A DNA stretch of 36,724 nt, counting the filler, from an uncultured virus (IMG/VR IMGVR_UViG_2061766007_000472) (lineage: Duplodnaviria > Heunggongvirae > Uroviricota > Caudoviricetes). It is 2 parts of one record of this genome, joined end to end, with 100 filler letters (N's around TTAATTAATTAA, not from the genome) between each part and the next. Parts side by side here need not be neighbours in the genome. Positions count along the whole stretch, not along the records: positions 1 to 31,618 come from IMGVR_UViG_2061766007_000472; positions 31,719 to 36,724 come from IMGVR_UViG_2061766007_000472. The stretch is one strand, 5' to 3'. The position numbers and the translations under genes were made by a program. This document shows, in pieces, positions 1 to 36,724 of the stretch; within the stretch, counting starts at the first letter, position 1; the number at the start of each line of letters is the position of its first letter. The notes below the pieces were generated by a model, which ran no database searches, was not told where the DNA came from, and saw nothing but the letters and a program-made list of their open reading frames with translations.

Positions 1-1392
1 TTGGTTCGTGTAGTTCCATTCTGCACTTACCCATCCGTCCGAGCAGTTTACCGTGACTGGACCCCAGCATTTTCCAAAATAATCGTTTCTTAACCAATCT
101 TCAACCGATAACATTTCCTGAATCGGGAAATTAACCGTCAAATCCGTCGTTCCGAACATAAAAGCGCTTGGACCTATGCTTGACACGCTATTTGGAACGT
201 TCATCGACGTCAATTCAGAGCATCCTAAGAATGCCCCCTCGTCAATGCTCAAAACCCCAACTGGAATGTCAATTGATTGAATTCTTGAGCATTCATAGAA
301 CGACTGATTTCCTATTGTTTTGACGGTGTCTGGAATTTCAATCTATTTGAGGTTTGAACACCCACTAAACATCTGGTTTCCGATTGCAGTCAACGTATTC
401 GGAAGTGAAATTGACGAAAGTCTGTAGCAGTCCATGAATATCCCGTCTCCCAAACTTGAAGTTCCGTTTGGAATCGTCACATTTGTAAAATCACAGTATC
501 GGAATGCAAGATACTGTATTTCCTTTACACTATTTGGAATTGATATGCTCGAAAGAATGTGGCAATAGTAGAACGCCTAGAACCCTATGGATGATACGCT
601 TGTAGGTATTTCAACGGAAATTAGGTAATTGCAGTATTCGAAAGCCTAGTGTCCTATTTTCGTGACATTAGTCCCGATTTCGACTGAAGACAGGCTGGAT
701 TTGGTTATCCCTACGTTTGTCATGGCCTGCTCGTCCAGGGTTCCAACTATGTCATATCTATAAACGTCTCCATTCCTGACGTGGAACACTGTCATTGTTT
801 CGTCTGTCGGAATCGGTCCTACCATATGCTGTATCACGCCTTTGAACTGGCCATACGTCGTATAGTACAATTGTCCGTAATCCATGAAAAATATGAGGTC
901 TCCGTCGTCTATTCTCTGGAGTCCAGTTTTTGCAGAGACAGAATTCGCTGAAATTCCGTCCGTAAAGAGGTTTACCCCAGTGAACAGGTTGTTGCTGGTC
1001 AGAATGTCTATTGAAATTACGTTCCTGGTGTTTGCGAAAACCCTGGAAATCTGGTCTGGAACTTCTTGAATGAGGCCTGACAGGTAATCGGTTCTGCCCT
1101 TGAACTGCTGATTCTGGGTTTCCATTGAACCAGCACTCTGACCAATGGACTGGATATTTTGTCTGTTTCCTTGAATCGTGCTCGATATCGTCTATATGTA
1201 CTGACTTGAAATCTATTCTATATCCAATTCCAGCTGTTCTGAACTTCCATGTATTTCGTCTACGTCGTCTCCAAGTCCGTTTACCACAGTGGACAGATAG
1301 TTTGCTGTTGTCAATGCCGATATCGAATTTGATGATATCTGGCCTATTAGCCCCATCGGGACCATGTTTTTTCCGTTTATGTATATTCCCAT
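1..1392 (-). CDS. BspA-type (LRR_5) leucine-rich repeat protein, probable tail fibre or receptor-binding protein; runs off the left edge
   Basis: ATG at 1392 with a GGAGTGAGG RBS, in frame with ORF 646..1125 when TAG is read through. The C-terminal part has canonical 23-aa BspA repeats ([45 protein letters not shown]..., SNLK*IEIPDTVKTIGNQSFYEC). TAGs at 646-648, 577-579 and 343-345 sit inside intact repeats. Confidence 0.85.
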
Positions 1393-1405
1393 GGCCTCAC
1401 TCCTG

Positions 1406-4400
1406 TCATTTAACCTTTACTATTCCATTTCTGGTCTGGAATACGACCTTGTTTCCGTCTTCGTCGAACGCATCTTGTACGGAAACCTCTATCGTGAACT
1501 GCTGTCCAGGAATCCATCCGATTGTTTCATCTTTCGGAATTAACATGATTGGAATGTGAACGTCTTTATTATTGGTTATCGTAAACCTGAGAAGTCCGTC
1601 GTTCAATCTGCTTTCGTCTGAAATTACTCCGCTTCCGTATGATGTCTTGGGAAGAATTTTTGCTATGGCCCTGTTGAACCTGACATTTACTGTATAACCT
1701 GGAATTATAGACGGGTTCTGAAACACGTATATATACGAAACGGTTTCAATGTCTGATTCTTCTATTGACACATTCTGGGCAACTATGCTCCTCGTNNNNN
1801 NNNNNNNNNNNNNNNNNNGAGTTGGGCTGGACGGTTCCAGTTCTCCTTATGATGAATTTCGGTTTGTCGTCCGATATGTTCTTGATTTCGTACCTTGCAA
1901 GGACGACCGTTCTGATTCCGACAATCTGGCCTCCACTTTCATATCTCACTTGTGCAACGAGATTTAGGGAACCAGTCTGTCCAGCGTCGAGAACGAGATA
2001 CGAGCCGTCGATTATCTTCGGATACAGCTTTCCGTTCCTTATTTCAGTGAACGGGGTGTCGAGATAGTTCATATAGTTGAACAGAAGCCTTATCTTGTTC
2101 CCGTTTTTCGCATAGTTGGCGTAAATCTTCATGAAATCATCTATATTGGAGTTTCCGCTTCCTATCTTGACAAAGACGTTTCCATTTGAATCGGAAGTTC
2201 CGTGTTCTTCGGATAATATATTTGTTTCTGACAATATCCTGCCGAGTGCTTCGTCTGTGGTCTGTGAGTCTTCTATCTATCCTATTATATAAGAGGACAT
2301 TGATTTGTCGTATTCCTGGAAAATGCAGAAATCCATTATCCTCGGGTCCTATACCTGGTATTTCTGGTAATTTGGAATGTCTCCATCTCCAGTAGATAGG
2401 AACTCTTCGGATACTAGTATGTTTCCATCCGCAGACCTTGAGAGTGGAACTGCTACGTTTCCTATTTGGTCTGCTATTTCTACGCTCTTGTCCATCTGGA
2501 TAATGAACGTTTTTTCCATCCTGTTCCTGTCGTAAACGCTCCCAGCCCTGTTGTATCCATGTAAAAGGGTATTTCCGAGATTTCCCTCCAGCTACTCCCA
2601 TATTGTCATGGCGACTGTCTTTGGATATCTCCAGTTAAGTGTTGGGAAATAATATTCGTTTCTTTCAACCGCCTCAAAGAAATCTTGGTCTGCATACTTG
2701 AAGTTCAGGTTGTATTCCCCCTATAGGCAGTAAACGTCGCTCAGATATGAATAATCAGACAGGTGTATCTCGTCAAGGTCTATTATGTTATTGTTTACGT
2801 CATAGAAGAACCTTTCAATCTGATTCTGGGTCTCCCTATAATCCTTCTTGTTCCTGTCGTAGTAGATTCCCCAGTCTCCCATGTCCACGTCCTGTCTATC
2901 GTATTCATGGATTATTAGAGGGGAGACTTTGGCTCCGTATACGAGATTCACCATTCCATACACGTCTAGATAATGGTAACTGTCGAATATGGCAAGGTCG
3001 TTCGGGTTGAACAACAGAACCTGAAGGGAGTCTTCCTTTATCTAGAAGAACTCCTTGTTCTACTGCTCAACCTTGAACATGGCGCTTATGTTTCCATTCT
3101 ATGCGTCGTATTTTACACTTATGCCTTCAACAAGGGGAATCCTGTTGGAATTGAGGCTTACAGTCGAAGCGTATGAAAATCTTCCAGCTATGTCGAAACT
3201 CGTGCTATCAGTAACCACGTTTCTCAGGTATTCCTCTTCGTTGTACATGACTGGAAGGGGCTGTTCGTATTTCGCCATGTCGGAGAGCATTGCCACGACG
3301 TATGGGTTCTTTCCGAGTGTGCTCCTCTTGAGAAACACCATGTGCATGTCCCTTAACTGCTTTTCGGTGAATCCTCGTTCGGACATGTCCATGTTCCAGA
3401 TGAAACAGCCAGTTTCTGAATCATAGTTTCCGNNNNNNNNNNNNNNNNNNNNNNNNNNNNNNNNNNNNNNNNNNNCACACCATTCCATATATTCCAGCCG
3501 AAAGGGAATCTGAGTAGAAATACGGGTTGACGTCCGTATTCACCATATTCGACAGCTTTGTAAGGTCTTCGGACGGACCAAGAAGCTCTATGCATGCAAC
3601 CTGCTGGTCTCCGAGAATCGAAAGCTCTCCTTCAGTTCCTGGATAGGAAGGTATGTATGACTTGTCCGCGTTTATGTTGAAACTTCTTAAGTCTCTTTCT
3701 ATGCTGGAATTGTCCGTAATGTCGAAACCAGCTATGACAACGTCATCGACAAATATGTCATGGGAGTTCATCTCGTCCCTGTAGTCGTCTATCGTGGGTC
3801 CTTCTGTATTGGAACTTAAGTTCGTCGTGTTCTTGTATTTATTTGCGGTAACGTTCGAAAGTTCGTTTTCCGCGAGAAACGCGAAGTCGAGGTGAACCGT
3901 CTGGTCGTCTGAGTGCTTCGCAAAGCAAATCTGGTCGCTGTGCTAAATTCCGTTAAATCCTATTTCGAATTCCAGTGGTTTTCCGACTATCTTGCAGTCT
4001 TTCGTCTTTATTATCCTGATTGACCCCCTGTCGATTAACCTTGCAGCTCCTTTCTCGTCATATCTCTTCTTTGCGAAGACATGACTTATGTCGTCTGTGT
4101 GGGTGTTAAAGCTTCCAAGATATGAATAGATATCGACTTCTTCTCCAAAACTTGAAAGATTCGACTGTATTCTGTAGTCTTCTGGATTCGTGGTTATCCT
4201 GTCCACGTAATTCGTGTTGTTCTCGTGTCCGAACGATATATTTCCGTTCTACGTCTTCTCTGGNNNNNNNNNNNNNNNNNNNNNNNNNNNNNCGAGTTCT
4301 CGTAGAACTGAACGTCGGCTGCGACGCCGTCTTCATGTATCTTTGATATGATGCATCCCTGTGAGCCGTCATCGGACATCTGCATGTCGTATACGAATTT

Positions 4401-7400
4401 TCCGTCATCAAACTTTTCCAGTGTATCCTTGAGGGCCTTCGGAACGTTGTCCGTGTCAACCTACGGGTGGTCTCCGTCAAGAGCTGGGAACGAAATGGGG
4501 GAATTCTTCTTTCTTATCCACAGCCTTCCTGGGGTATTCCTTCTCTCGTGGAACGTGGTTTCGTTTTTCCCGTACTTCTTGTATACCGTATAAATGTTCT
4601 CGCTTCCGTCCATTCCGTAGAAATAGATGTCATACATGTCGGACAACTCGTTGTCTTTGACTATATCGTATATGTCTCCTACGTATGCCGTAATCTGGTC
4701 GTGTATAAGCTTTCTTTCCGCCGCATATGACGACTTGTCTAGTCCGAGATGCGAGTAAAATCTCTGATAAAACGTCTCTTGGACGTTTGACGAAAGATAC
4801 TTGGCCAGTCCGTTCCATGAATGTGACTGATATGACGTTCCATTGATGTATCCAAGAAGCATTGACGATATACCGTCAATGCCCATGTCGGTCGTCTGTG
4901 CTATCTGGTCAGATATTTCACGTACAAGGCCGTCACAATCATGATATTCCATGACTACGAACCCGTTTTCGGAATTTTCCACGAATTTTATGTAGTCGTA
5001 TATGTCGTTGGGGGTCAGTTCCTGATTGTACACTATGCTCTGGTATAACGAATCCGACGTTGTGGCGGACAAAACTGATTTTGCGCATCTTGTCACGTGC
5101 TGGCTTTCCACCCCGTCTTTAAGCAGGAATTCCACCGCTGGTGGATAGAACGGTCCGTCATAGTCCACGACTTCTGACGTAAGCCTGGAATCGGTTGACT
5201 GGTGATGGCTTGNNNNNNNNNNNNNNNNNNNNNCCATCAGCTCTGGATGCATCCACTTGTTTATAATTTGTCCGAACTTTCCATAGTACTGGTCCGCTTT
5301 CTGAACAATCCTGTTCCATTCGAGGTTAGCCACGTTCGCGCTGAAGAACTTCCTGGAAATGTCGTACATGTTAAAGGCGTCCTTCTCTATGAGGTTCCAC
5401 ATGAATTGGTGTATCTAGTATGACGGATGGGTCTAGTTCTTCCAGTTCATGTACGGATAATACGCGAAATCCTGTCCTCCATAGTTGAGCATTACGCTCA
5501 TGTTCGTCTGGAAATCGGCTCTCGTCATGTAGTTAAGCTCGTCAATCCTGTATTGAACGGCTTCCATGAAGTCTTCGTATCCGTCAAGGGACGAACCGAG
5601 GTTTTCGGAAAGGTAGTCCAGGGCTGGGTCTATCTTTCCATACATTACGTCTTCCACGGAGAGGTTTCCGTTCTCCTCGTTTAACTGGATTGTGTTCCTG
5701 AGGTCTTGCTCTATGGTCTCTATGTAGTCCTGGATGTAGTACGGGTCTCCAGTCGTCATCTGGTACTTCTCGGCAAGTTCGTTTATCACTTCGGTAGCCT
5801 ACTGCTGCAGGTCCGTTAGCTGCTTGACTATGTCTTCCAGTCCCTACCTTATTCCAACCCTGTTGTCGGAGTCTTTCCCGACTACATACGCAAGAAGCTC
5901 GTCGACGAGGGTCAGCGTTATCTCGTTTATGTCGTGGTTTCCAGTGAAATCCTGCATGTAATCGGTCTGGTCCTGGTTCGTGAAGATTTTTCCAAACGCT
6001 GTAACATATGGCTCGAACCTGTTCTTGAGGTTCTCGGAGATGTTCTTCTTCTTTTCGTAGTCCTTGAGCTTGACGTCGCTCTGGATGAACGTCTCATCCA
6101 TGTTGGAATTAACGAAGTTAAGAAGTTTTACCATCCTGTTCTCGACTATGTCGCTCTGTATATAGTCCTTGTTCTTCGTATACGTTCCGCTTGTCTGCTC
6201 TTTTGCGAAATTGTATCCGAACACGCTTTCCAGCTGGTTCAGAATTCCAAGCATCTTCTGGTCTACGTCGTCAAGCCCCTTCAATGTTGATGTGACTGCG
6301 GCTACGGTTCCGTCGCTCTTCAGCCCCTTGAAATCTGGAAACGTCTATATGTCCATCCAGTTCTTGAGCTGTAGGCACCTGTTCTTCAGGCTCTTCTCGT
6401 CCTCCTCGTAAATGGCTTCTGAAGGTACGTCCATCCACCATCCGTAGTACTTTCCGCTGTGCTTAGTGTAGAAAACCCACTGGGAGCCAGGTGCTATTAT
6501 GTAGTCCTTGGACGGCTTGGACGTAGATGTCAGGTCTTCTTTCAGATTATATGTCTAATAGTCGTTTTTGCTCATCCCGTCTGGCTTGACATTTGTGAAG
6601 TACATTATCTTCGTATCGCCAAGCTTGTAGTTCGGACTCTTGGTGTCGTACTGGGATACCGCCATCGTAAAGCTATTATTGATGGAATTGAACTGGTTGT
6701 CAAGCTCCCTGACCTGTGTCTTTATTCCTTCGATTATCTCCTTTATGTACTGTTTTCTGTCCTGGATGCTGTCATCGAGGAACTGTGTTACGTTGTCAAG
6801 TCTCTTGTTTAGAGAGTCGAACTGAAGTTCCTGGCTGTATCCGTACTTGTATATTTCGTTCACGACGCTAATGTTCAGCTACGAGCTAATCTCTATCTGT
6901 CCGTTTCTCACGTCGTCAGCGGAATCCTTTGCGTAGTGGTTTACGAGATTGTCATCTTTCTGGCAGTACTGCTGCAAAAGGAATATCTGCTCGGCAACGT
7001 TCTCGCTGTAATAGTTCGGGTTTCCGATGTAGTAGTCGTAAGTGTTTACTACATCCTGCTCCTTGAAGTACATCTGGTACTCTCCGCTGAGGAATTCCCC
7101 GAAATTGGCACATAGCTGGTTCAGGCTTTCCTTTAATCCGTCCACCTTTGATATGTTTTCATCGTACTCCGACGAAATAGCGGAGAGATATGTGTCGTTG
7201 AGATTGCTTAATATGTAATCCCTTATCTCGCCTCTCTGGGTTGACAGCTGGGAACCTTCTGATTTCTCATATCCAGACGAGAGCCTTGACTGAATCTCGT
7301 CCCTGTACTTCTGCATGGACGTAAGGACTGGATACAATGAATTCGTATACGTCCCATTTCCCAGTTTTGTCTGGAAATTTCCGTCCGCGTCGATGAAGTC

Positions 7401-8959
7401 CTTCTTTGCGGAAAAGTCAAATATCGTGTCCAGGAAATCCGTAAGGTCGTTGTGGGACATTCCCTTCTCTTTCATGACGGCACGTAAGTAGAACCTGTCA
7501 ATCTGGTCGAGGCGAAGCTGTAGTCCGTCTTCGTTCATTACGTCGTCATGCTTCCAGTATCTCGGATTTGTCGGGGTGTCCGTCTAGATTGAGGAAACAG
7601 ACGATTCCGTTTCTATGTTGTAGTACTCCGTCGCGTCGTAGTACTCTATTACGTTTATGTCGCTTATCGAATGCGAAGAAAGCATCTGCATCGTTGCGGA
7701 CGTTCTTGAATCAACCTGGTCCGTTGCAAGGGCGTTCCTTGAATAGTCTATCAGGTACTCGTTCACTAGATAAAGGATGAGGTTGTTCGTGCCCTTCATG
7801 TAGCATTTTCTCGCGTGGTACTTCAGCCTCTCCCTTATTTCCCTTATGTAGATGGTCGTTCTTGCGAGCTGGCGTGCGACTGATTGAACCATTTCCATAT
7901 TTATGTCGCTCGTCAACTCTCCAGTTGGATTGTCCGAAATAACCTTGTCTTTTCCGTCTTGAAGTTGGAATACGGTATACTGTGGATTTAGTTCGTATTT
8001 CGTTCCACCGTTCTTCGATTTATACCTTTGCTCCACGAAAGACGCGTATTCCAGGACCTTTCTTTTCCTGTAATATGAATACTTCGACTGGAATCCAGCC
8101 TGTCCGTCCACATTGTAGATTGGTCTGATTGAATTCTGGTCGAACTCCCTCGCCCTTCTGTCCATTTCCATCTGAAGAAGTTCCTGGACCTCGTTCGGAT
8201 AGTCGTCCTTCGACTCCAGTTCCATCTCTATCCTGTCGACTGTCCCAGAATAGTCGAACTTCAGGTCTATGTGGTTCTTCTTCATGTAATTGACGGCGTC
8301 GGTCTTGAAATTCTCGTCGTCAAGTTCATTGTTGATTGACATGTAGACGNNNNNNNNNNNNNNNNNNNNNNNNTGTATGGAAGGGTCAGGAATCCAGATA
8401 TCACGTCCGAGAACTTGTCTATCAGGAAGTCCTTGAACTTTCCGTCGTCGAATACGTCGTCCTTTACTGTGACTTTATCTACATCTGAAAACCCGAAATT
8501 CCGTTCGTATCCAAAATCATACTTGTCTATCACCCTTGAGCTCAGCTCTTCATACAGTCCGTCGTCGAGAAATCCTCTTTCCTTCAGGTACTTCACGTTG
8601 ACGGAATATATGTCTATCAACTGGAGTATCTCCACTGGAATCTGCTCCTGTGGACCGACAAGGCTCATCTCGAAACCGAGATTGTCGAGCATGGACTGGA
8701 GCGCCTTTACCTTGCATGTCTCCACGTCGGAGGCGAGTCCGACGTAATTCCTTATGTTCTGGAACACCGTGCTTCCGATGTCCCCTCCTATTGCCTGAAG
8801 GGCCTCCCACATGAAGGATTTCTGGGTTTCCTGGTTTCCAAAATACTGGTCGAATCCCTCGGAGAAGTCCCTGTTTCCTATGAAACTTCCGAGGATGTTA
8901 GAAAAATGGAATCCCCCGTCGTTGTACGCCCTGCTTTCTATTGGATAGTTGGTGTCCAT
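1406..8959 (-). CDS. Giant (~2500 aa) baseplate wedge initiator-like protein (T4 gp7 / P2 gpI-like N-terminal region)
   Basis: ORF fragments from 8282..8959 down to 1406..1771 are joined only by in-frame TAGs or N gaps, and the first TAA/TGA I found is at 1406. The N-terminal motifs NYVGLASDVETCKVKALQSMLDNLG and KCYMKGT resemble gp7/gpI-family motifs, and the gene lies directly after gp6. A boundary hidden in an N gap cannot be excluded. Confidence 0.6.
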
Positions 8960-23900: not shown

Positions 23901-24878
23901 NNNNNNNNNNNNNNNNNNTCTCTTTATTTTCCTGTTTATTCCTTTAAACTGGCCTTGTAAGTGTTTTTTCTCGATGTCGTTCCTGTCCTTGAACACTTTC
24001 AGGAGTTTTTTCACATCTTTCTTTGGAATTCCGATGAATTTCTTAGAGTCGAATTTCTTGAACTGCTTCTTGTTTCCAGTTATCGACTTTGGTGACAAAT
24101 CCATTTTCTGGAGCTTTTCGAATGCCTTTGAATATTTTTCCNNNNNNNNNNNNNNNNNNNNNNNNNNAGGATTCCTTGAACACCCTAGGAAGTTTTTCCT
24201 TTGTATTTGTGGTCTTTCTGTCAATTTTGGAAATTATTCTTTCTGATGTATATGCTTTTTCTGGAACATTCCCTACAGTTCCAGAAATATTCTTTTTGTA
24301 ATTGTTCTTTTCTTCCTTTGTCCGTCCTTCTTTTATCTGTTCTTCAAATATGCTTTCAAGTTCTTTGAGTTTTTTCGCCCTATCAAGTGTGTTGTCTTTG
24401 AATGTCTTCTATTGACCGATAATATTGGTTTCTTCGATTATCTTATTGACTGCATTGTCTACTATGCAGCATATGTCATCTATGGATTTTTTCTTAAACT
24501 CATCCCAATCTAAGTTTCCAGTTATATTATCTAGTTCGTCTTTCGAAACATTCTTCTAGTCTTGTACAATCTGCTCGACCTATCTTGACACGAAGTCCAT
24601 TACATCTTCGCGTTTTTGCTGAAAAGCCTAGACGAATCCGAGGTCTTTCCTTGCAATGTTCTTTAAAAGCCTGAAAAGCTTTAATAGCTTCAGGTTTTGG
24701 TCGTTGTTGAAATTGTTTTCCTTATATGAGCCGAACGTCTGGNNNNNNNNNNNNNNNNNNNNNNNNCCTGGTTTTCCGAAATTTTGTAGACTTCGACCTT
24801 GAACTTGTCAACCTAGTTCTTTTTCTGTGTTCCAGGAACCCTCGTTCTCCTTGTTATCTTTATTCTGTCGCTCATCAT
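20990..24878 (-). CDS. Tape-measure-like protein, part 2 (~1300 aa; may be a separate gene or continuous with part 1)
   Basis: Many small ORFs (23877..24224, 23507..23827, 23198..23431, 22862..23152, 22325..22618, 21941..22288, 21656..21925, 20990..21205) chain into one frame via TAGs and gaps. Helical and Lys-rich, followed by Gly/Ala hydrophobic stretches. Ends TGA at 20990. The start (ATG ATG at 24878/24875) is next to a gap and uncertain. Confidence 0.5.
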
Positions 24879-27680: not shown

Positions 27681-27687
27681 TTCTCTC

Positions 27688-27921
27688 TCAGTTGTTGGAC
27701 GTCTGGTCGAATGTCATGTAGTTAAGGGTGTCCCTTATGTTTATTAGGCACTTCGCCATCTTGTCCTGCGTCCTGTTCTTCTGCTCCTCCTGGAGCCTGT
27801 TTGTCAGGTTGTCCACGTAGAACAGTAGGTCGTTCAACGTAAGGTTCCCGAACATCTAGAACGGGTCCATCTTGTACCTCATCCAAATCATCATCTCCAC
27901 GTTGATTATGTTGATGTACAT
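27688..27921 (-). CDS. Small chaperone-associated ORF, probably the -1 frameshift extension of the upstream gene
   Basis: MYINIINVEMMIWMRYKMDPF*MFGNLTLNDLLFYVDNLTNRLQEEQK..., with one TAG at 27856-27858, ending TGA. The frame is open back to the slippery site at 27948-27954 and has no obvious RBS of its own. Confidence 0.7.
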
Positions 27922-27944: not shown

Positions 27945-28820
27945 TCAGAAAAAATCCGATAGGCTCCCGACTCCCTCGGTAGTCTCTGCTCCGCAGTGCG
28001 CGCACTTCTCGTACTGGAATATTCCGTTCAGCCTTTCCACGAAATTCTTCGTTATGTAGCTTATGACTCCTTCGTTCTCGGAGAACACGACGTTTTGCGG
28101 AAACACCTCTATGAGGTTCTCGATTTCGCCGTATGTCATGAGCGTGAGGTCAGCTGTAATCCTGTCGTTTGGGTCGGACTTCTCTATGACCTCTATCTGC
28201 TTTATGTACAGGTTTACGTACTCGACGTTTCCGAAATTGTCGAGGACTTCCTTCTCCACCTTGTTGAGTCCCTTGTACTTCTTCATGTAGTACCTGTAGA
28301 AGTTGGAAACCGTCCTTACGAGAGGGTAGTTAATCGTGAACTTGTATATGCGCAGGTCGTCTTCTACGGTGAAGATGTCGTCGCTGAGGTCGAAATCGTT
28401 GAATTTCTGTATAATCTTTGAGAAATCTAGCTTGTACGCGTTCTCCGCTCCGCACTCGCGGCACTTGTAAGTGATGTCGTTCTTGAAGTAGTTCGCCTGG
28501 TAGATTTCCATGAGAATTCTTATCCTGTCGAACTCGGTGAGCTTGTATACGTCGAACCCGTCTTCGAGCGCGAGCTTGTTTATGAGGTTGCACTGTGCGT
28601 CGTATATGATGTCTTTCCTCGTCTCGTTCTCGATTGAGGTCTTGGATAGGGTTTTCTGCTCGTTTACCGTCACTTCCCTGAACCCCACTTCGTGCCCGAG
28701 GCTGTTCACCATTATCCGCCTAACGGTGGTGGAGAACTTTTTCTTGAACGCGTTAAGTATGTCAGCGCCAGGGTTCTTAGGCGCTGATTTTTCGACTATT
28801 GTGTTTTCTTCTGTTTTCAT
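27945..28820 (-). CDS. Baseplate hub assembly / tail chaperone, T4 gp26/gp51 family
   Basis: Intact 291-aa ORF with a CAGGAG RBS, FREVTVNEQKTL motif, two CxxC motifs (CRECG, CAHCG) and a C-terminal GSLSDFF typical of this family. Confidence 0.75.
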   Translation of the reverse strand: MKTEENTIVEKSAPKNPGADILNAFKKKFSTTVRRIMVNSLGHEVGFREVTVNEQKTLSKTSIENETRKDIIYDAQCNLINKLALEDGFDVYKLTEFDRIRILMEIYQANYFKNDITYKCRECGAENAYKLDFSKIIQKFNDFDLSDDIFTVEDDLRIYKFTINYPLVRTVSNFYRYYMKKYKGLNKVEKEVLDNFGNVEYVNLYIKQIEVIEKSDPNDRITADLTLMTYGEIENLIEVFPQNVVFSENEGVISYITKNFVERLNGIFQYEKCAHCGAETTEGVGSLSDFF

Positions 28821-28860: not shown

Positions 28861-28869
28861 ACCGAAAAA

Positions 28870-30058
28870 TCACATCCTGAGGGTATTCGCCGCTGAGAAC
28901 AACGCGGAGTTCGCGAGACCAGATTTGCTGGTTCCGTCGCTTGGGCCGCTTCCGAGCTTCGTCTTCTTGAACGGGGCTGGAATCTTGTATACGGTGTCCT
29001 TTCCTCTGCTTTCAACAGTCATCAGGTCGAACGCGAAAGTCACGTTCCTGGTAAGTCCCTGGGATGGGGATTGGTCTGGCTGTATCATCTGAATCTGGAT
29101 TGGCCTGCATCCGTAGAAAACGTACTTGACGCTTGAATGGAAAAAGTCTATCGTTATAGTTGCGGTCGTGAACGGCTAGGTTTCATAAGACCACCTTGGA
29201 AGTGTGGTTTCCCTCATCCACGGATAGAAAATCTCCTCGAGAATGGGATTCTTGACGTTTACTATCTCCATGTTGAGATTGTTGTTGTCGGCCCCCAATA
29301 TGTTTCCTGGAATCGGGAACTTGCCCATCGGAGTCGTAGTCTCCTCCGTTCCCTGAACTGACATGTTCGGTATCAGGATTTTCTGTATGAATATTCCGAG
29401 GTCAAGCTTCTTATTANNNNNNNNNNNNNNNNNNNNNNNNNNNNNNNNNNNNNNNNNNNNNNNNNNNNNNNNNNNNNNNNNNNNNNNNNNNNNNNNNNNN
29501 NNNNNNTTTTTCTTCATCCTATGTCAGCATGTTCTTGAATTTTATCAAATTCAAGAGCTTTGCTAGTATCGAGTCTCCTTTAGTCTCAAATCCAGAACTG
29601 ACATCTTTTCCTTTATAAAGTTTGTCATCTTTCTTTAAGTAATACACTTGTTTTATATATTCTGTTTCAACAGACGGAAAAAACTCGAAATAGCAGTCGA
29701 ACGTCACAAGTGGGTCAATCATATCAACAAAATCCGCGTTATCTGACCCACGTGCTGAGAACTTTCCGTAGAATTCCTGCAATCTGGAAAAATACTGTGT
29801 TTCGTTGGTCCTCTTGTATCTTGTCTTCGAACTTCCAGTGAGCGCCTTCGCGAGTCCAGTTGCCCCTAGAGCCCCAGCCGCCTTTGCGACTATCCTTCCT
29901 CCTCCGACTATCGTTCCAGCTACGTTTTTCTGGATTCCAGATACGGAGTCCATCATCCCGTTCAGCTTGCCAGGTTTGTCGTTTCCGTGGTTGAACGCCT
30001 TTGATGTCTTTCCTTCGACCTTCTTGTTCGCGCTCGCCAATGTGTTTTCAATAGCCAT
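28870..30058 (-). CDS. Tail-tube-fold protein with an N-terminal extension (gp19/gp54 superfamily)
   Basis: ORFs 29519..30058, 29176..29517 and 28870..29088 are linked by TAGs and a gap. FIQKILIPN...IFYPWM...YVFYGCRPIQI...RNVTFAFD follows the tube-fold pattern. Confidence 0.6.
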
Positions 30059-30061
30059 ACG

Positions 30062-30694
30062 TCATCTTCCGAGAATGTTGCTCATCTTGTTGCTAATCTT
30101 GTCTACCTTGCCCAATAATCCGTCCTTCGTCTTTATGCTTCCGCGCTCGAAGTCCGTGAACTTTGCATAGGCGTCAACAGTGAACGTCTGGACTGTAGAG
30201 TCCGTGTGTGAGAAGTCAAGCCCGCTTATTCCAGTAATCCTTACGCCTTCCATTATTATGTTCATTCCAGGATAGTTCTGGCCGTCGCCCCTCTGCTTTA
30301 TCTTTATCTTGAAACCGTTGTCGAGGAATCCGAACACTCCATAGTCCAGAACCATGAGCTCCCTGAGCTTTCTGTATGTCTTTCCAGCCCCGTCGTTGAT
30401 TACCACCATCTGGAACTCGTGCTGCTGTTCGGCCCTTACTGGAACTTGGACCTCAAGGCCGTGGTAGAAAAGACTGTAGTTCTCTGATTTCAGGCCAGGT
30501 ATGTTCACGCTTTGGCAGAAGAACTGGAATCCTCCCATCTTGTAGAAAAGAACCTCGAAATTCGACTTTATCTGGACTCCAGCACCAGAGATTACGTGCA
30601 TGAACTCGTACAAAGACGAATCGGAGGACTTCCCCTTGTCGGACTTCCTCGAACTGATGTTCGCAACTGAATTTACTATCGCACCTAGACTCAT
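30062..30694 (-). CDS. Tail tube paralog / tube initiator (gp19/gp54-like)
   Basis: Intact ORF. SNFEVLF, FFCQSVNIPG, VVIND and LDFSHTDSTVQTFTV match gp19-family motifs. GAGG RBS before ATG 30694. Confidence 0.7.
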   Translation of the reverse strand: MSLGAIVNSVANISSRKSDKGKSSDSSLYEFMHVISGAGVQIKSNFEVLFYKMGGFQFFCQSVNIPGLKSENYSLFYHGLEVQVPVRAEQQHEFQMVVINDGAGKTYRKLRELMVLDYGVFGFLDNGFKIKIKQRGDGQNYPGMNIIMEGVRITGISGLDFSHTDSTVQTFTVDAYAKFTDFERGSIKTKDGLLGKVDKISNKMSNILGR

Positions 30695-30709
30695 CAAAAA
30701 CCTCGTGGA

Positions 30710-30716
30710 TATTTAC
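30710..30716 (-). promoter_or_regulatory. Putative late promoter GTAAATA immediately after the terminator
   Basis: Intergenic copy of the recurrent motif. Confidence 0.6.
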
Positions 30717-30717
30717 C

Positions 30718-30747
30718 AAACAAAAACGGCGGACTAGCCGCCGTTTT
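30718..30747 (-). terminator. Rho-independent terminator after the major tail tube gene
   Basis: Perfect 10-bp inverted repeat AAAACGGCGG-n5-CCGCCGTTTT, ending in TTTTTGTTT on the minus strand. Confidence 0.85.
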
Positions 30748-30772
30748 CTTCAGTTGACTGTTATGACTGAAA

Positions 30773-31342
30773 TCATTTCTGTCCTACTAGCGCTCCGTTT
30801 GCGGAGTTTTCGATTTGCCAGTAAATGGATTTGAGCTAGACCTCAAATGTCGCGACGGATGCGTCGCTGTTGCTCATCTGGAGTGGTCCGACCGATGCAA
30901 CCTTGACTCCGATTAGCTTGTAAACCTCAGCGACGCTGGACATGTCGTTGTCAAGAAGCTGGAGACGGACAACCGAGCTGTTGTTAAGACGCCTGTCACC
31001 AGCAAATACGGAACCTCCCTCGATGTCTGGGTCCGCCACCTTTGCCGCCCATGCAAGGAATCCACGGCGAATCTCTCCGTTCGTGTCAGCTCTGACAGTT
31101 ATCGTATGGTCCTGTTCCATCTTCATCACGGTAGGCACTGGGACCATGAATCCCTTGAATCCCACGTCTGCGTATTCCTACGTCCTGTTCGGCGCGGCGA
31201 ATCCGTCGACGTACATAGTGATTCCCTGGAAAATCTAGTCTATTTCGGAATAACCAGTCGTAATGGTCATTTCGTACATGTTCGTCGTACGAAGCTGGTT
31301 CGTAGACATCTTGTTCAGAAACTGGTTGAGAGCTATAGCCAT
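30773..31342 (-). CDS. gp19: Major tail tube protein, T4 gp19-like (189 aa)
   Basis: ATG at 31342 with an AAGGA RBS. LRTTNMYEM...HTITVRAD...IRRGFLAW...VGPLQM...ATFEV*LKSIYW aligns with gp19 motifs. Three in-frame TAGs (31235, 31178, 30836). Ends TGA before the terminator. Confidence 0.85.
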
Positions 31343-31718: not shown

Positions 31719-34715
31719 CTTTCGTCACATATAATCTTATAGTCGTACAGACCTCCGCCAATCTTGGCTTCCTTGAAGTACGGGTCGAGCAGGTCGACTA
31801 CGCGCTGGCGCATATAGGCCGTGTTGCCCTCGTACACCACATAGCGGAGGACCTTGTAGGTCGCACGCTCGAGGCGGAGAAGGAGACGGCGGACGTTTAC
31901 GCGGTCAAGTGCCGAAGGCTTCGTCTGGAGGGTCTTCTGNNNNNNNNNNNNCTGAGGGTAGTTGATTGCGTAGTTCCAGTTCTTCGTGTAAATCTGACCA
32001 GCCTGCTTGTTTGTCGGACTGAACGCCACGTCGAGGGCTGCGACGATTCCACGGTTAAGTCCAGCTGGTGCGTCCCAGTACTCGAAGTTGAGGTCGGTGT
32101 AGATGTACACGCCGCAAGCCTTGATGGAAGGCGGGCACCAGAAGTAGTCTCCGCTGAACTCGTCTGCAACCTGGAACCAGTCGCAGTATCCAGCGCCGTA
32201 GGAGGTGTTGATTCCCGTGAGGTACTTCGTGTAGGGAAGAATCTCCGAGTCAATCGTGTTCTTCGGCTTGGAAGGACGGACAATCTTCTTCTGTCCCTGG
32301 AGACAGTATGGACGAGGTCCGTCAGCGATGAACATGCAGTCCTTGCGGATATTCTTGCAGAAGTTGTCGTACTTCAACACGACCGTTTTCCACATCTTTA
32401 CGTCGTTGTCCTTCTTGCACTTCCACATCGCCGCGTCTGGAGAGGCTGGGTCGTAGAATCCCTTCTTTCCGTAGACTGTCTTGATGAACTGGGCGATATT
32501 GGAGATACCTCCGTCGACAACGATGTCGATATCGCGCTCGTTGATGTCTGTCACCTTGTCGTATACCGTGTCGAGTGCCTTGAGAATAGATTCGGAGATG
32601 TCGATATCCTCTTCGCACTGTCCCTCATAGAATCCCATGGATGCTACGTATGCCGTGTCGTGTGGCATTACGAGAATGTCAACGTCTTCCTTGTATGTCC
32701 TCTTGAGCGCGTCAGTAGGAATGCAGTTTGTGAAGATGTTCACGTACTCGGACTGCTCGTTTACAATAGTGTCTATGAACGTAGTGGCTCCAGTGTTCGG
32801 GTTCTTCTCGTCTCGGTCGAGCGAGCCGACGAAGGNNNNNNNNNNNNNNNNNNNNNNNNNNNNTCGCTTGCGTCGAGGAAGGACTTCACGACCACAAGGC
32901 CGATTTTCTTCATGTTCTCGCGGTCGAAGCTTCCGTCTCCCTGGAGGGAGATACTTGAGAAGTAGTTGTTCGCTTGTAGTGCGAGGGAATCGAAGAAGTC
33001 GTCGTCGTTGTCCTCTTCAGTGTGTACGTTGTTGAAGCGCTGAGAGATTACCGCGACTGTCGAGAGCTCTCCTTCAAGCATCGTGTTGTGGGTATCGTAG
33101 TCTTTTCCTAGATATGTGTATTTCTGCGTGCTTGAATCGAGCGTCTGGATGTTCTTTATTGTCTCGTAGTCTGTGACGTAGTCTTTTCCAACGTCAATCA
33201 TGGACTGTGCGTAAAGGGCGTTTGCAGCCGTCGTAACAATCGGAATGACTCCGATTAGTTCGCGACCGTCGTTCTTGTGGAACTTGTCCTCTGGGACCTT
33301 TCCGTATGTCTTCCTGGTCTTGTCGACTATTAGAATCTGGTTTGTTGCGACCCTGGACTCGTCCGTCCTGTACTCGTCAATCTAAGACATTTCATAGAGT
33401 GCTGGGGAGCTAGATGATTCTATCTGCCAGTATTTGTCAATCGTATTGTCGGACTGCCTGATTTCGGACCAGGCGAGGTCCGCGTTCACGTTGTCTATTA
33501 TGGCGTCATTGATTGCATCTGAATTCTGTGATTTCTCCTCGAAGTAATCAATTGCGTCTTCAAGTGTTGTCCCCTTGACAAGGTTGAAATCTCCGTTGTT
33601 CACCAGCGCAGTGAGATATGCGAACCTTTCTTGGTTATCAAAATTTGACGAGCCTTCGAGAACCTGGAACGCATCGAATCCGTCTGCTTTCCTGAGAATC
33701 AAATTTCCGTTAATTGCCTGTTCGTACTAAATTATTCCAGGTTCATCTGTCTTGAACATGACGTAAATGTCGTCTGAAATAACATTTGGTGTTTCGGAAT
33801 CCCATGCGACAAGACCCTCTATCTTGTTTATGGAGAACGGAACCGAATCTGGACCAGCTCTTAGAAGAAGTGGATTGTAGCTCGACGTGAACGTGTTCCT
33901 TGCCGTCAATATTGAATAATGTGCATCAGATGAACATGCTATTACAACGCTAATGTCCTGTTGATAATCAACCTGCGCCGTAACGTCATTTTCATCGAAA
34001 TTTTCAGTTGTTATCTTGGTATCCAAGAAGTAAAACGCATTGAGACGGGGATTAACGCCAAGCGTATTTCCGCTTAGTTCATTTATATACGAAGTCAACT
34101 GGGATTTTGACATAGATGAANNNNNNNNNNNNNNNNNNNNNNNNNNNNNNNNNNNNNNNNNNNNNNNNNNNNNNNNNCGTCGCTTCTGTCAACATTGTTT
34201 ACAGAATCATTAAGTACATTGAGATTCGTGCTTGACAAGTTTATAAAATTATTGAGGTCTTCCTTGTCGGTTGCGTCTCCAACATTGCAGTTTGCCATGA
34301 AGAATCTCAGAACGTCGTCGCAATAGGAATCTGAATTCTTAAGAACCGATTTAAGCTGAGAATACTTGCTGCCATTGAGAAGTTCACTTACGGTCNNNNN
34401 NNNNNNNNNNNNNNNNNNNNNNNNNNNNNNNNNNNNNNNNNNNNNNNNNNNNNNNNNNNNNNNNNNNNNNNCGACCCCGTTCTGGTTAAGCACTTCCATT
34501 GAGGCTGCGTAGAAATACCTCTCGGCCTCGTTGTCTGGCTCCCCGTAGTAGTTGAGCCATGCGCTCTTGGAGGTGAAAATCATCGGAATATAGTCTTCAC
34601 CAGAATTGGCGAAGCCAGTTACAAGCACCTTGGTGCCAGTCATAGCTGGAGAATACTGGGACTTGTCAATCTCGTGTATCTCGATTCCAGGCGCGTCTAT
34701 CGTTCTTATGGCCAT
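31719..34715 (-). CDS. gp18: Tail sheath protein B (T4 gp18-like, >1000 aa; C-terminus truncated by the contig break)
   Basis: N-terminus MAIRTIDAPGIEIHEIDKS...YYGEP. C-terminal WCPPS, WDAPAGLNRG and KTLQTKPSALDRVNVRRLLL are sheath signatures. Fragments are joined by TAGs (33727, 33382) and N gaps. AAGGA RBS. Confidence 0.9.
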
Positions 34716-34755
34716 GTTTGGTTATCCTTTTGTCAAAATCCTTAGGTCTTTCTCT

Positions 34756-34762
34756 TATTTAC
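34756..34762 (-). promoter_or_regulatory. Putative late promoter GTAAATA between the two sheath genes
   Basis: Intergenic copy of the recurrent motif. Confidence 0.6.
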
Positions 34763-34776
34763 ATAGAAACGTCGGT

Positions 34777-36724
34777 TCAGGTTCCCAACTCGGACTCCAT
34801 AACCTCCTCGACATCTGTAGTCTGGTTCGTGGCTATGAAGTTAAGAACTATGAACTCTATCGTCTTTATTGGTCTTACCGCTATTGAAATGTGCAGCTCG
34901 TTGTTTTCTATCGTCTGTTCCGTATTGTTCCTCTCGTCGCATACGGTTATGTACTGGGAGNNNNNNNNNNNNNNNNNNNNNNNNNNNNNNNNNNCCTGTC
35001 TACGAGGTCTTTAATTCTTTCCCTGTTGTACTCGGTATTTCCCTAATAATTGAAATACTTGCAGAGATTCCTTACTACTTTTTCCATTCCAAGCATGAGA
35101 CGCCTGACGTTAACCCTGTCAAGAGCGGTTTTTTCCTTCTGGAAAGTCCTCTGACCCTCTAGGACTATTCCGTCAAGAGGATAACTTACCGCATAGTTCC
35201 ATGAATTGACGTATATCTAACCAGCTTCTTCGTTTGTTGGATTGAACGCCAAGTTCAAGGTGTCCTTTATCTTTCCCCTGTTCAGACCAGCAGGTGCGTC
35301 CCAATAGGAACCGTTGTTGTCAGTGTAGAGATATACTCCCAGCGCCTTTATCGACGGAGGAATCCACATGTACTCGCCAGTTGAATGGTCTACGGAGTAA
35401 AACCAGTTAAGGTATCCAGCCGAATACGAAGAGTTGAAAATTCCAGATATGAGTTTCATCTTGGGGAGAATGCTGTTTTTGACTGTATTGTCTGGTTTTG
35501 TTCTCCTGACGACTGGGTCGTTGTTTTCAAGGCAAAACGGCCTTGGTCCGTCCGCTATGAACATTGCGTCTTTTCTCGTATTCTTCACGAAATCATCGAA
35601 CCTGTCTATTACCTTCCTCCAGACGGTGCATTGGTTTCTCGAGTCTAGTTTGAAAAGGTATGCGGTTTCATCGTTGAAGTCGAACGTTCCAAATCTCTTG
35701 AACTCGTCCTTGACGTATTCGGACGTCTGTATACCAGTGTCCTTGTTCTTTTTGTAAAGTTGCGTGGAAGCTATGAACTGTGCTATGTTTGACACTCCTC
35801 CGTCGATTATGATGTCGAAATCCAGCGTATTCCTGTCTTCGCTCTTCTCGAAAATCTTCAGTAGGGGCGCATATATCGACTCGGACACGTGTATGAGCTT
35901 CCTTGTTTCCCTTTGATAGAACCCGAGAGAACATGCAGTCTGGTTGTTTATCTTGTAANNNNNNNNNNNNNNNNTGTTTCCGTCGTCAGATTCCTTTATG
36001 TCGGCATTTGAGAAAACAGTTATGTAATCTGAATTTGAATTGACTATGTCGTCTATGAAGATTCTCTCGCCAGTAGTTTCGTCTCTCGCTTTTCTGTCAA
36101 GTGAACCTACGAACGACTCGACTGGCTGGAAAGATATCTTATCTTCGTTTGCGGTATCCTTGAATACCTTAAAAACGACTATTCCTATCTGCTTGAGGTA
36201 TTTCCTGTCTAGCCTGTCGTTTATGAATTTTATTGTTGGAAAATACTCGGCGGCGACTTCCGATGTGGTGAAATCGTTTATTGTCACCCTTGAATTGTCC
36301 AGTTCGAACACTTCATTTCCAAGACAGTCCACAAGTCCAGGGAATTGTTTCGCTTCTTCACCAGATTTCTCACTTGATACTGTTCTATTGGTGTAATCAA
36401 AAGGCTAAAGGCATTCTTTATACGCAGTTCCGCCGTTTTCCCTATAAGAATTCCTGACCTTTTCTATCACATTGTAGTCTGGGAGAATGGCGTCGGTTTT
36501 TCTTATGACTTCCTAGTAAAACATTGCGTTCACTGGTGAGACTATGGCTGGCATTATACCGAGTATTTCATTTCCGANNNNNNNNNNNNNNNNNNNNNNN
36601 NNNNNNNNCCCTTGTCTTGTCGACTATGTAAATCTTGTTCAGAGGAACCCTTAGTTCTTTTATTATGAACTTGTCGTAGTTCTCAAACGACATTGTCTCT
36701 TCATTTGGTTGTTCGTCTGGTTGA
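34777..36724 (-). CDS. gp18: Tail sheath protein A (paralog; N-terminus lies beyond the right edge)
   Basis: WIPPS and WDAPAGLNRG, then after TAG 35217: IYVNSWNYAVSYPLDGIVLEGQRTFQKEKTALDRVNVRRLML...VCDERNNT...NELHISIAVRPIKTIEFIVLNF. Ends TGA at 34777. Confidence 0.9.

What the first reader, a model, noticed from the sequence alone, without database searches (positions are those of the whole stretch)
1..36724. Stop-codon reassignment: TAG encodes glutamine (code 15) across the whole structural module
Seen: minus-strand ORF fragments end in TAG and continue in frame with conserved motifs, while every clearly visible true gene end is TAA or TGA. The two sheath paralogs give an internal control for the amino acid. 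Sheath A EAG*IYVNSWNYA (TAG 35217-35219) aligns to sheath B QAGQIYTKNWNYA (CAG 31994-31996). Sheath A GNEILGIMPAIVSPVNAMFY* (TAG 36513-36515) aligns without gaps to sheath B GRELIGVIPIVTTAANALYAQ (CAG 33205-33207). A third TAG (35043) aligns to Glu. Known: TAG-to-Gln recoding occurs in Lak megaphages, some crAss-like phages and other gut phages. Inference: this phage is visibly less AT-rich than Lak and may be a distinct recoded lineage.
Basis: partly seen in the sequence, partly recalled or inferred. Interest (0 to 1): 0.85.

Follow-up and report, generated by a model that had tools for sequence, protein, structure and literature searches.

The report
Phage tail genes read TAG as glutamine
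This stretch is the tail-gene block of an uncultured large phage from cattle gut that uses the stop codon TAG as an ordinary glutamine codon, a kind of code change already described in gut phages.

Summary
All genes lie on the minus strand. With TAG read as sense, 49 ORF pieces cover 97.6% of the non-N bases and hold 101 in-frame TAGs in 11,479 codons. All 17 visible gene ends are TGA (13) or TAA (4).

- **Window against relatives:** at 44 window TAG positions aligned to related contigs, relatives show Gln in 20.9% of weighted cells. The background is 3.7%, and the window's own CAA/CAG positions give 25%. Log-likelihood is Q -125.5, E -141.7, K -142.3.
- **Deep columns:** in 12 columns with at least 70 homologs, Gln is the plurality in 7.
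- **Relatives against window:** their aligned segments hold 362 TAG against 4 TAA and 2 TGA, most often opposite window Gln.
- **tRNA:** one recoded relative carries a CUA-anticodon tRNA.

The window holds no tRNA and its genome is not held, so the decoding machinery of this phage is inferred.

This is a new member of a known kind: TAG-recoded large gut phages (Borges et al. preprint; Lak; jumbo-phage surveys). It is not Lak-like in GC (0.42). The scan has noted TAG recoding before on other DNA.

The parts
34780..36724 (-). Tail sheath paralog A. It is 5'-truncated by the window end and ends with TGA at 34777-34779. In-frame TAGs start at 36513, 36405, 35217 and 35043. N-runs at 36578-36608 and 34961-34994 shift the frame.
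   Evidence: phrog_23 tail sheath E 1.2e-27. 1975 homologs, many carrying PF17482. Frames seen by tblastn. TAG columns.
31721..34721 (-). Tail sheath paralog B, in several frame pieces split by N-runs. In-frame TAGs start at 33727 and 33382. CAG at 33205 and 31994 lies opposite TAGs of paralog A.
   Evidence: phrog_23 E 1.8e-27. Homolog N-termini map to 34473-34715 and the later parts to 33471-31721. Codons checked.
30776..31342 (-). Tail tube paralog 1, with TAGs starting at 31235, 31178 and 30836. It ends in TGA.
   Evidence: phrog_45 tail tube E 1.8e-21. 111 representatives. TAG 31178 aligns to Q in 39 of 89 homologs, including a 94%-identical fragment.
30065..30697 (-). Tail tube paralog 2, with no TAG. 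It ends in TGA.
   Evidence: phrog_45 E 9.4e-13.
28873..29415 (-). Tail tube paralog 3, with a TAG starting at 29176. It ends in TGA.
   Evidence: phrog_45 E 9e-08. TAG 29176 lies opposite Q in 8 relatives and TAG in 1, of 9.
27948..28820 (-). T4-type baseplate hub protein, with no TAG.
   Evidence: phrog_150 E 5.8e-09. PF12322 T4_baseplate E 5.4e-08, 33.2 bits against a cut-off of 24.5.
20993..27713 (-). TAG-rich genes of unknown family, possibly tape-measure or internal tail proteins. The pieces are 26598-27713 (2 TAG), 24940-26544 (12), 24169-24741 (4), 23730-23888 (1), 23285-23566 (2), 21686-23242 (8) and 20993-21664 (3).
   Evidence: ORF pieces and TAG counts. No PHROG or Pfam family above threshold. 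Relatives were found only for 26598-27713 and 24169-24741, in G001.
13497..14324 (-). Conserved baseplate-region protein with 6 TAGs, four of them in the first nine codons (ATG TAG TTG TAG TAG AAT AAC GTT TAG).
   Evidence: Sequence. Relatives G001 and G003 align from residue 15 onward, with Q opposite TAG 14070 in 2 of 2.
9635..10972 (-). gp6-like baseplate wedge protein, with TAGs starting at 10802, 10760 and 9947.
   Evidence: phrog_219 E 4.9e-32. Gp6-like_1st is below its cut-off. 333 homologs. Q in 58/120, 115/120 and 28/120 homologs at the three TAGs.
4293..8342 (-). Large tail or baseplate protein (about 1380 aa across one N-run) with 9 TAGs.
   Evidence: The G001 relative has a 1268-aa open frame with 2 TAG inside. 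Only 3 database homologs.
1..1392 (-). BspA-type leucine-rich-repeat protein, a likely tail fibre or receptor-binding protein. Its 3' end runs off the window. 5 TAGs, starting at 1213, 1192, 646, 577 and 343.
   Evidence: PF13306 LRR_5 E 2.7e-50. phrog_35892. Repeat comparison.
1..36724 (-). 101 in-frame TAG codons in 49 minus-strand ORF pieces. First bases on the + strand: 343, 577, 646, 1192, 1213, 2277, 2349, 2592, 2721, 3042, 3060, 3099, 3943, 4249, 4461, 5415, 5433, 5799, 5844, 6345, 6555, 6879, 7584, 9561, 9947, 10760, 10802, 11420, 11719, 12052, 12930, 12984, 13035, 13392, 13398, 13419, 13659, 14070, 14298, 14310, 14313, 14319, 14600, 14648, 15482, 15548, 15674, 15782, 16439, 16661, 18576, 18765, 19481, 20237, 20497, 20530, 20551, 20653, 21317, 21497, 21656, 21941, 22292, 22325, 22700, 22838, 22862, 23192, 23198, 23492, 23507, 23877, 24409, 24556, 24580, 24628, 24949, 25006, 25249, 25297, 25363, 25411, 25681, 25843, 25852, 25993, 26170, 26464, 27459, 27486, 29176, 29519, 30836, 31178, 31235, 33382, 33727, 35043, 35217, 36405, 36513.
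   Evidence: One search gives the list and the pieces. The pieces run stop to stop, so a few TAGs may lie upstream of true start codons.

Best explanation
The window is the contractile-tail module of an uncultured large phage found in bovine-gut metagenomes. It holds two sheath paralogs, three tube paralogs, a baseplate hub, a gp6-like wedge and an LRR fibre.

In these late genes TAG is not a terminator. It is a sense codon that supplies about one in five glutamines: 101 TAG against 96 CAA and 341 CAG. TGA and TAA end the genes.

Shown here: TAG is in frame inside conserved genes, the effect is specific to TAG, and the aligned-residue profile matches a Gln codon.

Inferred: during infection a tRNA with anticodon CUA, charged with Gln, reads UAG. 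It is most likely encoded elsewhere in the phage genome, as in one recoded relative. Under this reading the tail genes can be translated in full only once that tRNA is present, possibly helped by a release factor that ignores UAG. This would gate late-gene expression in a standard-code host.
For: - **ORF structure:** 49 pieces cover 97.6% of non-N bases with TAG as sense, and 101 of 11,479 in-frame codons are TAG.
- **Homology across TAGs:**
- **Residue identity, window TAGs against relatives:** at 44 positions the Q share is 0.209, against a background of 0.037 and 0.25 at the window's own Gln codons. Log-likelihood is Q -125.5, E -141.7, K -142.3. Q is the plurality at 10 of 44 positions, and the next residues reach 4 each.
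- **Deep columns (at least 70 homologs):** Q is the plurality in 7 of 12, including 100/101 at 36513 and 115/120 at 10760. A 94%-identical fragment has Q at TAG 31178.
- **Reverse test:** relatives' aligned segments hold 362 TAG, 4 TAA and 2 TGA. The window residue opposite is Q at 48 of 213 distinct positions. On the smaller first set this was a 6.4-fold enrichment, with Q ahead of E by 66 log units.
- **Paralog control:** 2 TAGs of sheath A lie opposite CAG of sheath B.
- **Clade context:** 40 of 48 relatives carry in-frame TAG.
- **tRNA in a relative:** recoded relative L040 has a tRNA with anticodon CTA (Rfam tRNA 31.8 bits). It has a U1-A72 pair and a G73 discriminator. I recall these as bacterial tRNA-Gln features; that rests on memory, not on a call.
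- **Literature:** TAG-to-Gln recoding of structural and lysis genes with suppressor tRNAs in gut phages, cattle included (10.1101/2021.08.26.457843, abstract and sections 5-6 read, plus passages).
Against: - **No decoding machinery seen for this phage:** there is no tRNA in the window and no Rfam match. The rest of the genome is not held. The suppressor tRNA, its charging and any release factor are therefore unseen for this phage. The L040 tRNA comes from a relative whose sheath is only about 39% identical.
- **Some TAGs sit in columns conserved for other residues:** 35043 is Glu in 111 of 111 homologs. TAG 343 lies where 5 other LRR repeats of the same protein have Ser. 35217 is Lys in 63 of 117.
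- **Many thin columns:** most of the 44 aligned positions rest on one to three relatives, and 55 of the 101 TAGs have no aligned relative at all.
- **Relatives are not independent samples:** L017 and L020 give identical counts.
- **No peptide or RNA evidence exists.**
Confidence: 0.86

Rival explanations
1. TAG is a sense codon but stands for another amino acid (Glu, Lys, Ser or other), or is read ambiguously.
For: TAG 35043 lies in a column with Glu in 111 of 111 homologs and in sheath B. TAG 35217 has Lys in 63 of 117. TAG 343 lies opposite Ser in 5 sister repeats. An 87%-identical fragment has Ser at TAG 31235. Earlier notes of this scan claim Glu, Leu or Trp readings in other phages (unchecked notes on other DNA).
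Against: Over 44 positions Q beats E by 16 and K by 17 log-likelihood units. The E share at TAG positions is 0.076, against 0.35 at the window's own Glu codons and 0.14 at its Gln codons. The window's ordinary Gln codons show the same pattern in conserved deep columns: 13 Q, 4 E, 1 N, 1 L. In the reverse test Q leads E by 66 log units.
Confidence: 0.07
2. The code is TAG = Gln, but the phage carries no suppressor tRNA of its own. The UAG-reading tRNA comes from the host, from a co-infecting element or from modification of a host tRNA.
For: There is no tRNA in 36.7 kb of window. No tRNA was found in six related viral contigs of 17.6-69.8 kb; only 1 of 48 related stretches has one. Borges et al. 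detected TAG suppressor tRNAs in only 40% of TAG-recoded genomes (10.1101/2021.08.26.457843, section 6).
Against: All the stretches searched are fragments of genomes that probably exceed 200 kb (contig lengths), so absence in them says little. Relative L040 does carry a CUA tRNA. Relatives that use the standard code sit beside recoded ones, which fits a phage-borne trait.
Confidence: 0.1
3. TAG is still a stop. The genes are decayed or split, or the TAGs are assembly errors.
For: The window is a gapped sequence with 36 N-runs, some of which shift the frame.
Against: Only TAG interrupts the frames: none of the 49 pieces contains TAA or TGA, which is by construction, yet the pieces still cover 97.6% of the bases. 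Conservation continues across the TAGs. Relatives from other contigs share TAGs at the same columns: 10 have TAG at the column of 36513. In relatives' aligned segments TAG outnumbers TAA plus TGA by 362 to 6. A contig from a different sample and study covers 34995-35153, and no difference is listed at 35043.
Confidence: 0.02

Closest known systems
Genetic code 15 (TAG to Gln) phages of human and animal guts: Lak, crAss-like and the Garnet, Amethyst, Sapphire, Agate and Topaz clades (Borges et al., bioRxiv 10.1101/2021.08.26.457843)
   Same: In-frame TAG in structural genes, a coding-density gain under TAG as sense, TAG aligned best with Gln, TGA and TAA kept as stops, clades that mix standard-code and recoded members, cattle among the sources, and suppressor tRNA (CUA) in part of the genomes.
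   Different: Clade membership could not be tested because the window has no terminase. GC here is 0.42, and recoded relatives reach GC 0.50-0.53, whereas that paper links recoding to low GC. TGA is the commoner terminator here, not TAA (13 against 4 visible ends).
Lak megaphages (PMC8346664)
   Same: A large myovirus-type phage of animal guts with a tail sheath gene. TAG is read as Gln. A CTA-anticodon tRNA and RF2 are reported for Lak.
   Different: Lak GC is about 26-31% and its genomes are 476-660 kb (passages read). The window is 42% GC and its genome size is unknown. The lowest-GC relatives found here (G006, L017, L020; GC 0.25-0.26) share about 46% sheath identity, and whether they are Lak was not established (no match).
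crAss-like phages with metaproteomic proof of TAG = Gln (PMC9523058; only the abstract start in the search listing was seen)
   Same: The same reassignment, confirmed there at the peptide level.
   Different: crAss-like phages are podovirus-like and lack a contractile tail. No peptide evidence exists for this phage.
Jumbo phages using code 15 in rumen and gut catalogues (PMC13037316, passages read)
   Same: Recoding concentrated in hallmark structural genes, with CTA suppressor tRNAs and RF2 in part of the genomes.
   Different: That survey calls codes by coding density only.
T4-type contractile tails (Straboviridae and cyanomyoviruses)
   Same: Sheath, tube, gp6-like wedge and T4_baseplate families all match.
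   Different: Only 24-35% identity to isolate phages. The sheath is duplicated and the tube triplicated. The code is not standard.

Membership tests
TAG-to-Gln (code 15) recoded phages | In-frame TAG inside conserved protein-coding genes, with homology on both sides | tested here: met
   101 in-frame TAGs. Full-length homologs align across them.
TAG-to-Gln (code 15) recoded phages | A gain in coding density that is specific to reading TAG as sense | tested here: met
   Minus-strand ORF coverage rises from 0.745 to 0.964, against 0.832 for TGA and 0.861 for TAA. With ORFs of at least 150 aa on both strands it rises from 0.59 to 0.98, against 0.83 and 0.71.
TAG-to-Gln (code 15) recoded phages | TAG columns align mainly to Gln in homologs | tested here: met
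   Q share 0.209 against a background of 0.037, with Q the best likelihood. Q is the plurality in 7 of 12 deep columns.
TAG-to-Gln (code 15) recoded phages | TAA and TGA remain terminators | tested here: met
   17 of 17 visible piece ends are TGA or TAA. Relatives have 4 TAA and 2 TGA against 362 TAG inside aligned segments. A TAG that truly terminates a gene could not be recognised by this method.
TAG-to-Gln (code 15) recoded phages | A UAG-reading tRNA (anticodon CUA) available, usually phage-encoded | not testable with these tools
   No tRNA in the window and no genome held. One relative, L040, has one.
TAG-to-Gln (code 15) recoded phages | Peptides with Gln at UAG | not testable with these tools
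   No proteome data. No RNA holder is listed either.
Lak megaphages | GC about 26-31% (PMC8346664) | tested here: not met
   Window GC is 0.421.
Lak megaphages | Genome of 476-660 kb, and placement in the Lak clade by capsid, portal or sheath trees | not testable with these tools
   Only 36.7 kb is held. No Lak sequence turned up in the collections searched.
T4-type contractile tail module | Sheath, tube, baseplate hub and gp6-like wedge families in one block | tested here: met
   phrog_23, phrog_45 (three times), phrog_150 and phrog_219. PF12322 is above its cut-off. PF17482 is precomputed on the sheath homologs.

The most novel reading that the evidence does not exclude
The window and its 48 relatives could be a so far unnamed clade of bovine-gut jumbo myoviruses, marked by a duplicated sheath and a triplicated tube. 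In this clade TAG-to-Gln recoding is nearly universal but graded, from 0 to 59% of Gln codons. It reaches members with GC of 0.50-0.53, which would not fit the proposed route to recoding through low GC and loss of TAG stops. Runs of TAG at the very start of a gene (four in the first nine codons of the gene at 13497-14324) could act as a dedicated translational gate.
Probability: 0.3. Interest if true: 0.45.

Novelty: new member of a known kind. Interest (0 to 1): 0.3.

Why it matters
**For annotation.** Under the standard code these tail genes are cut into fragments. The database holds such fragments of close relatives, for example a 374-aa piece that matches the code-11 ORF of sheath A. Gene calling and function prediction for this phage group therefore need code 15.

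**For biology.** This adds a mid-GC lineage of large cattle-gut phages to the list of TAG-recoded phages. Within one sheath-defined group the use of TAG varies widely between relatives. That makes the group a usable natural series for asking how recoding starts and spreads.

It does not open a new question. The phenomenon, its likely mechanism and its presence in cattle-gut phages are already in print.

Tried and rejected
- failed because my trimmed coordinates were out of frame. It was repeated with whole ORF coordinates.
- no genome is held for the window, so the proposed search for a CUA tRNA, GlnRS or RF2 in the rest of the genome could not be done.
- a single-protein search of viral contigs found nothing. 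The alignment-based search found 7 loci.
- blastn of 7.5 kb of the window, and megablast of 20 kb of the low-GC relative G006, against 50,697 GenBank phage records gave no match.
- the metagenome contigs behind L009, L012, L015 and L046 are not held, so their wider context (contigs up to 432 kb) could not be read.
- the 1038-aa piece has only 3 database homologs, so its 8 TAG columns stay thin.
- Rfam found nothing in the window.
- there are no earlier notes on this genome or on look-alike sequence.
- no RNA holder is listed.
- **LRR internal-repeat control:** mixed result. At two TAGs the sister repeats have Q in 2 of 6, and at a third TAG they have Ser in 5 of 5. It was not used as support.
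- **TAG = Glu:** It was tested and rejected for this window.
- **TAG as stop with decayed genes, and assembly error:** both rejected.
- **Not attempted:** structure prediction and complex prediction were not needed. A Prodigal or Codetta run was not possible with the tools, so ORF coverage and an empirical substitution-profile likelihood were used instead.
- **Not seen:** the supplementary tables of the Borges preprint, which list genomes and clades. They might already include this phage or its clade.
Full report
**What is in the window.**
The window is 36,724 bases at 42.1% GC, with 36 N-runs of 10-162 bases (1431 N in all). Every gene lies on the minus strand. Family scans identify a contractile-tail module:
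- two tail sheath paralogs (phrog_23);
- three tail tube paralogs (phrog_45);
- a T4-type baseplate hub (phrog_150; PF12322 above its cut-off);
- a gp6-like baseplate wedge (phrog_219);
- a BspA-type leucine-rich-repeat protein at the low-coordinate end (PF13306, E 2.7e-50).

Most of the other genes match no family. Identity to isolate phages in 50,697 GenBank records is only 24-35%, to T4-like and cyanophage proteins, and no nucleotide match exists there.

**A technical point on the N-runs.**
Full-length sheath homologs map to the window in frames that switch at the N-runs 36578-36608, 34961-34994 and 32836-32863. The frame is kept across 35959-35974. The N-runs are therefore gaps or masks of unreliable length. 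The long ORFs that searches list across them end in out-of-frame tails. All my counts use ORF pieces cut at the N-runs.

**Check of the observation.**
The five quoted codons are exactly as stated, and so are the peptide contexts. TAG 35043 faces Glu of sheath B.

With only TAA and TGA as stops, 49 non-overlapping minus-strand pieces cover 97.6% of the non-N bases. They hold 11,479 codons, of which 101 are TAG (8.8 per 1000). Seventeen pieces end at a visible stop, 13 at TGA and 4 at TAA. The other 32 end at an N-run or a window edge.

TAG occurs in 27 of 33 pieces of at least 100 codons. Its spread over genes is mildly uneven (chi-square 54.3, 32 df, p 0.008).

The gain is specific to TAG:

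| Measure | Code 11 | TAG sense | TGA sense | TAA sense |
|---|---|---|---|---|
| Minus-strand coverage by ORFs of at least 100 aa | 0.745 | 0.964 | 0.832 | 0.861 |
| Longest minus-strand ORF (aa) | 450 | 1427 | 581 | 594 |

**Which amino acid.**
Three kinds of comparison were made.

1. *Related DNA.* An alignment-based search found 7 viral and 43 metagenome loci with the same pair of sheath genes. Six viral contigs were fetched whole. After dropping two exact duplicates (L014 = L002, L034 = L007), 48 relatives were aligned to the window pieces by tblastn, keeping the best segment per relative.
   - Of the 101 TAGs, 46 fall in aligned segments and 44 face at least one residue.
   - Weighting each position equally, relatives show Gln in 20.9% of cells. 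The background is 3.7%. At positions where the window has CAA or CAG the figure is 25%.
   - An empirical substitution-profile likelihood gives Q -125.5, E -141.7, K -142.3.
2. *Deep protein columns.* These come from database homologs of the sheath (120 listed of 1975), the wedge (120 of 333) and the tube (111). Among 12 TAG columns with at least 70 homologs, Gln is the plurality in 7.
   - The seven are 36513 (100/101), 10760 (115/120), 10802 (58/120), 9947 (28/120), 9561 (26/90), 33382 (12/72) and 31178 (39/89).
   - The other five are Lys (35217, 63/117), Glu (35043, 111/111), Ser (31235), Thr (30836) and a mostly gapped column (36405).
   - A 94%-identical fragment has Gln at TAG 31178. 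An 87%-identical one has Ser at TAG 31235.
3. *The reverse test.* Inside aligned segments the relatives carry 362 TAG but only 4 TAA and 2 TGA. The window residue opposite their TAGs is Gln at 48 of 213 distinct positions, followed by Glu 29, Asp 22 and Lys 19. On the first, smaller set this was a 6.4-fold enrichment, with Gln ahead of Glu by 66 log units.

**The Glu column.**
TAG 35043 sits where every homolog, and sheath B, has Glu. The Glu share opposite window TAGs is 0.076, near the background of 0.061. It is 0.35 at the window's own Glu codons.

In deep columns that are at least 80% conserved, the window's ordinary Gln codons face Gln 13 times, Glu 4 times, and Asn and Leu once each. The TAGs face Gln twice and Glu once. 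One Glu column is therefore what a Gln codon would be expected to show.

A contig from a different sample and study covers 34995-35153, with no difference listed at 35043. Its one unlisted differing letter could not be placed.

**The clade.**
Every relative has both sheath paralogs, since each sheath piece hits twice per locus. Forty of the 48 carry in-frame TAG in the aligned genes. The TAG share of Gln-type codons runs from 0 to 0.59, and GC from 0.25 to 0.53. Eight relatives show none.

ORF coverage confirms strongly recoded members, such as L036 (0.12 to 0.96) and L040 (0.31 to 0.95). It also confirms standard-looking ones, such as L003 and L015. The window's share is 0.188.

Homologs sit on contigs of 200-430 kb, so these are probably jumbo phages. 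The relatives are not independent samples; L017 and L020 give identical counts.

**Mechanism.**
The window has no tRNA and no Rfam match, and its genome is not held.

Among all related stretches only L040 has a tRNA, at 14598-14672, with anticodon CTA (Rfam tRNA 31.8 bits against a cut-off of 29). Its acceptor stem starts with U1-A72, its discriminator is G73 and CCA is encoded. I recall these as features of bacterial tRNA-Gln; that rests on memory, not on a call.

The most likely mechanism is therefore the published one. A phage-borne amber suppressor tRNA charged with Gln lets UAG-bearing late genes be translated. It may be helped by RF2, which is reported for Lak and Agate phages (10.1101/2021.08.26.457843, section 6; PMC8346664, passages). 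For this phage that step is an inference.

One gene, at 13497-14324, begins ATG TAG TTG TAG TAG AAT AAC GTT TAG. Relatives align from residue 15 onward. Without suppression this gene could not be translated beyond its first codon.

**Comparison with what is known.**
- *Borges et al.* (preprint; abstract, sections 5 and 6, and passages read) found 473 alternatively coded phages in human and animal guts, cattle included. Three quarters were TAG-recoded, with TAG aligning best to Gln. Recoding was concentrated in structural and lysis genes. Clades mixed standard and alternative codes, and suppressor tRNAs were detected in 40% of TAG-recoded genomes.
- *Lak phages* use the same code at 26-31% GC (PMC8346664, passages).
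- *A 2026 survey of jumbo phages* reports code 15 with CTA tRNAs and RF2 in gut and rumen jumbo phages (PMC13037316, passages).
- *Peptide-level proof of TAG = Gln* exists for crAss-like phages (PMC9523058). I saw only the start of its abstract in the listing.

The present case has all the sequence-level features of this kind. It differs in GC (0.42, with recoded relatives up to 0.53), in preferring TGA as terminator, and in belonging to a sheath-duplicated lineage. I could not place that lineage among the named clades, because the window holds no terminase.

**Verdict.**
This is a new member of a known kind and of modest interest. Its main value is for correct annotation, and as one point in a graded series of recoding within one group of cattle-gut phages.

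Noticed in passing
window, 36 N-runs (for example 36578-36608, 34961-34994, 32836-32863, 35959-35974): The N-runs are 10-162 bases long. At least three change the reading frame of the sheath genes and one keeps it, so their lengths do not reflect the missing sequence. ORFs called across them have false ends.
   Followed up: partly
window 31721-36724 and 28873-31342; loci L001-L007: The sheath gene is duplicated in tandem and the tube gene is present in three diverged copies. All seven viral relatives also carry two sheath copies, since each sheath piece hits twice per locus.
   Followed up: partly
window 14298-14324 (minus strand): The gene at 13497-14324 starts ATG TAG TTG TAG TAG AAT AAC GTT TAG, with four TAGs in its first nine codons. 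This is a possible strong translational gate. No other canonical start codon lies before the conserved part.
   Followed up: partly
window 343-345 (minus strand), LRR protein 1-1392: This TAG lies at a repeat position where five sister repeats of the same protein have Ser (C-x-x-L-x-S-I-x-I-P). Two other TAGs (646, 577) lie where sister repeats have Q, Q, L, G, S and G.
   Followed up: partly
window, the 17 visible gene ends: TGA ends 13 genes and TAA only 4. Borges et al. report a TAA preference in recoded phages and their relatives.
   Followed up: no
L040 14598-14672: A tRNA with anticodon CTA in a strongly recoded relative. It has a U1-A72 pair, a G73 discriminator, an encoded CCA and a D-stem of only three pairs. 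ARAGORN labels it 'tRNA-Pyl' merely because of the anticodon.
   Followed up: partly
window 15209-16588 (minus strand): The 460-residue piece holds four diverged internal repeats, each built around a W-N/K-P-D/E-P-N motif (HWNPDPND, VWNPDPND, YWNPDPNE, EWKPEPNS). It matches no family.
   Followed up: no
G006 (69.8 kb), L017, L020: Relatives with GC 0.25-0.26 and in-frame TAG (37 in 4176 aligned codons for G006) share about 46% sheath identity with the window. They are in the Lak range for GC, but were not shown to be Lak.
   Followed up: partly
G001 (32.3 kb, GC 0.49) and G003 (31.8 kb, GC 0.52): These high-GC relatives carry a low density of in-frame TAG (15 in 6535 and 7 in 2770 aligned codons). 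This suggests light or incipient recoding at a GC content where it is not expected.
   Followed up: no
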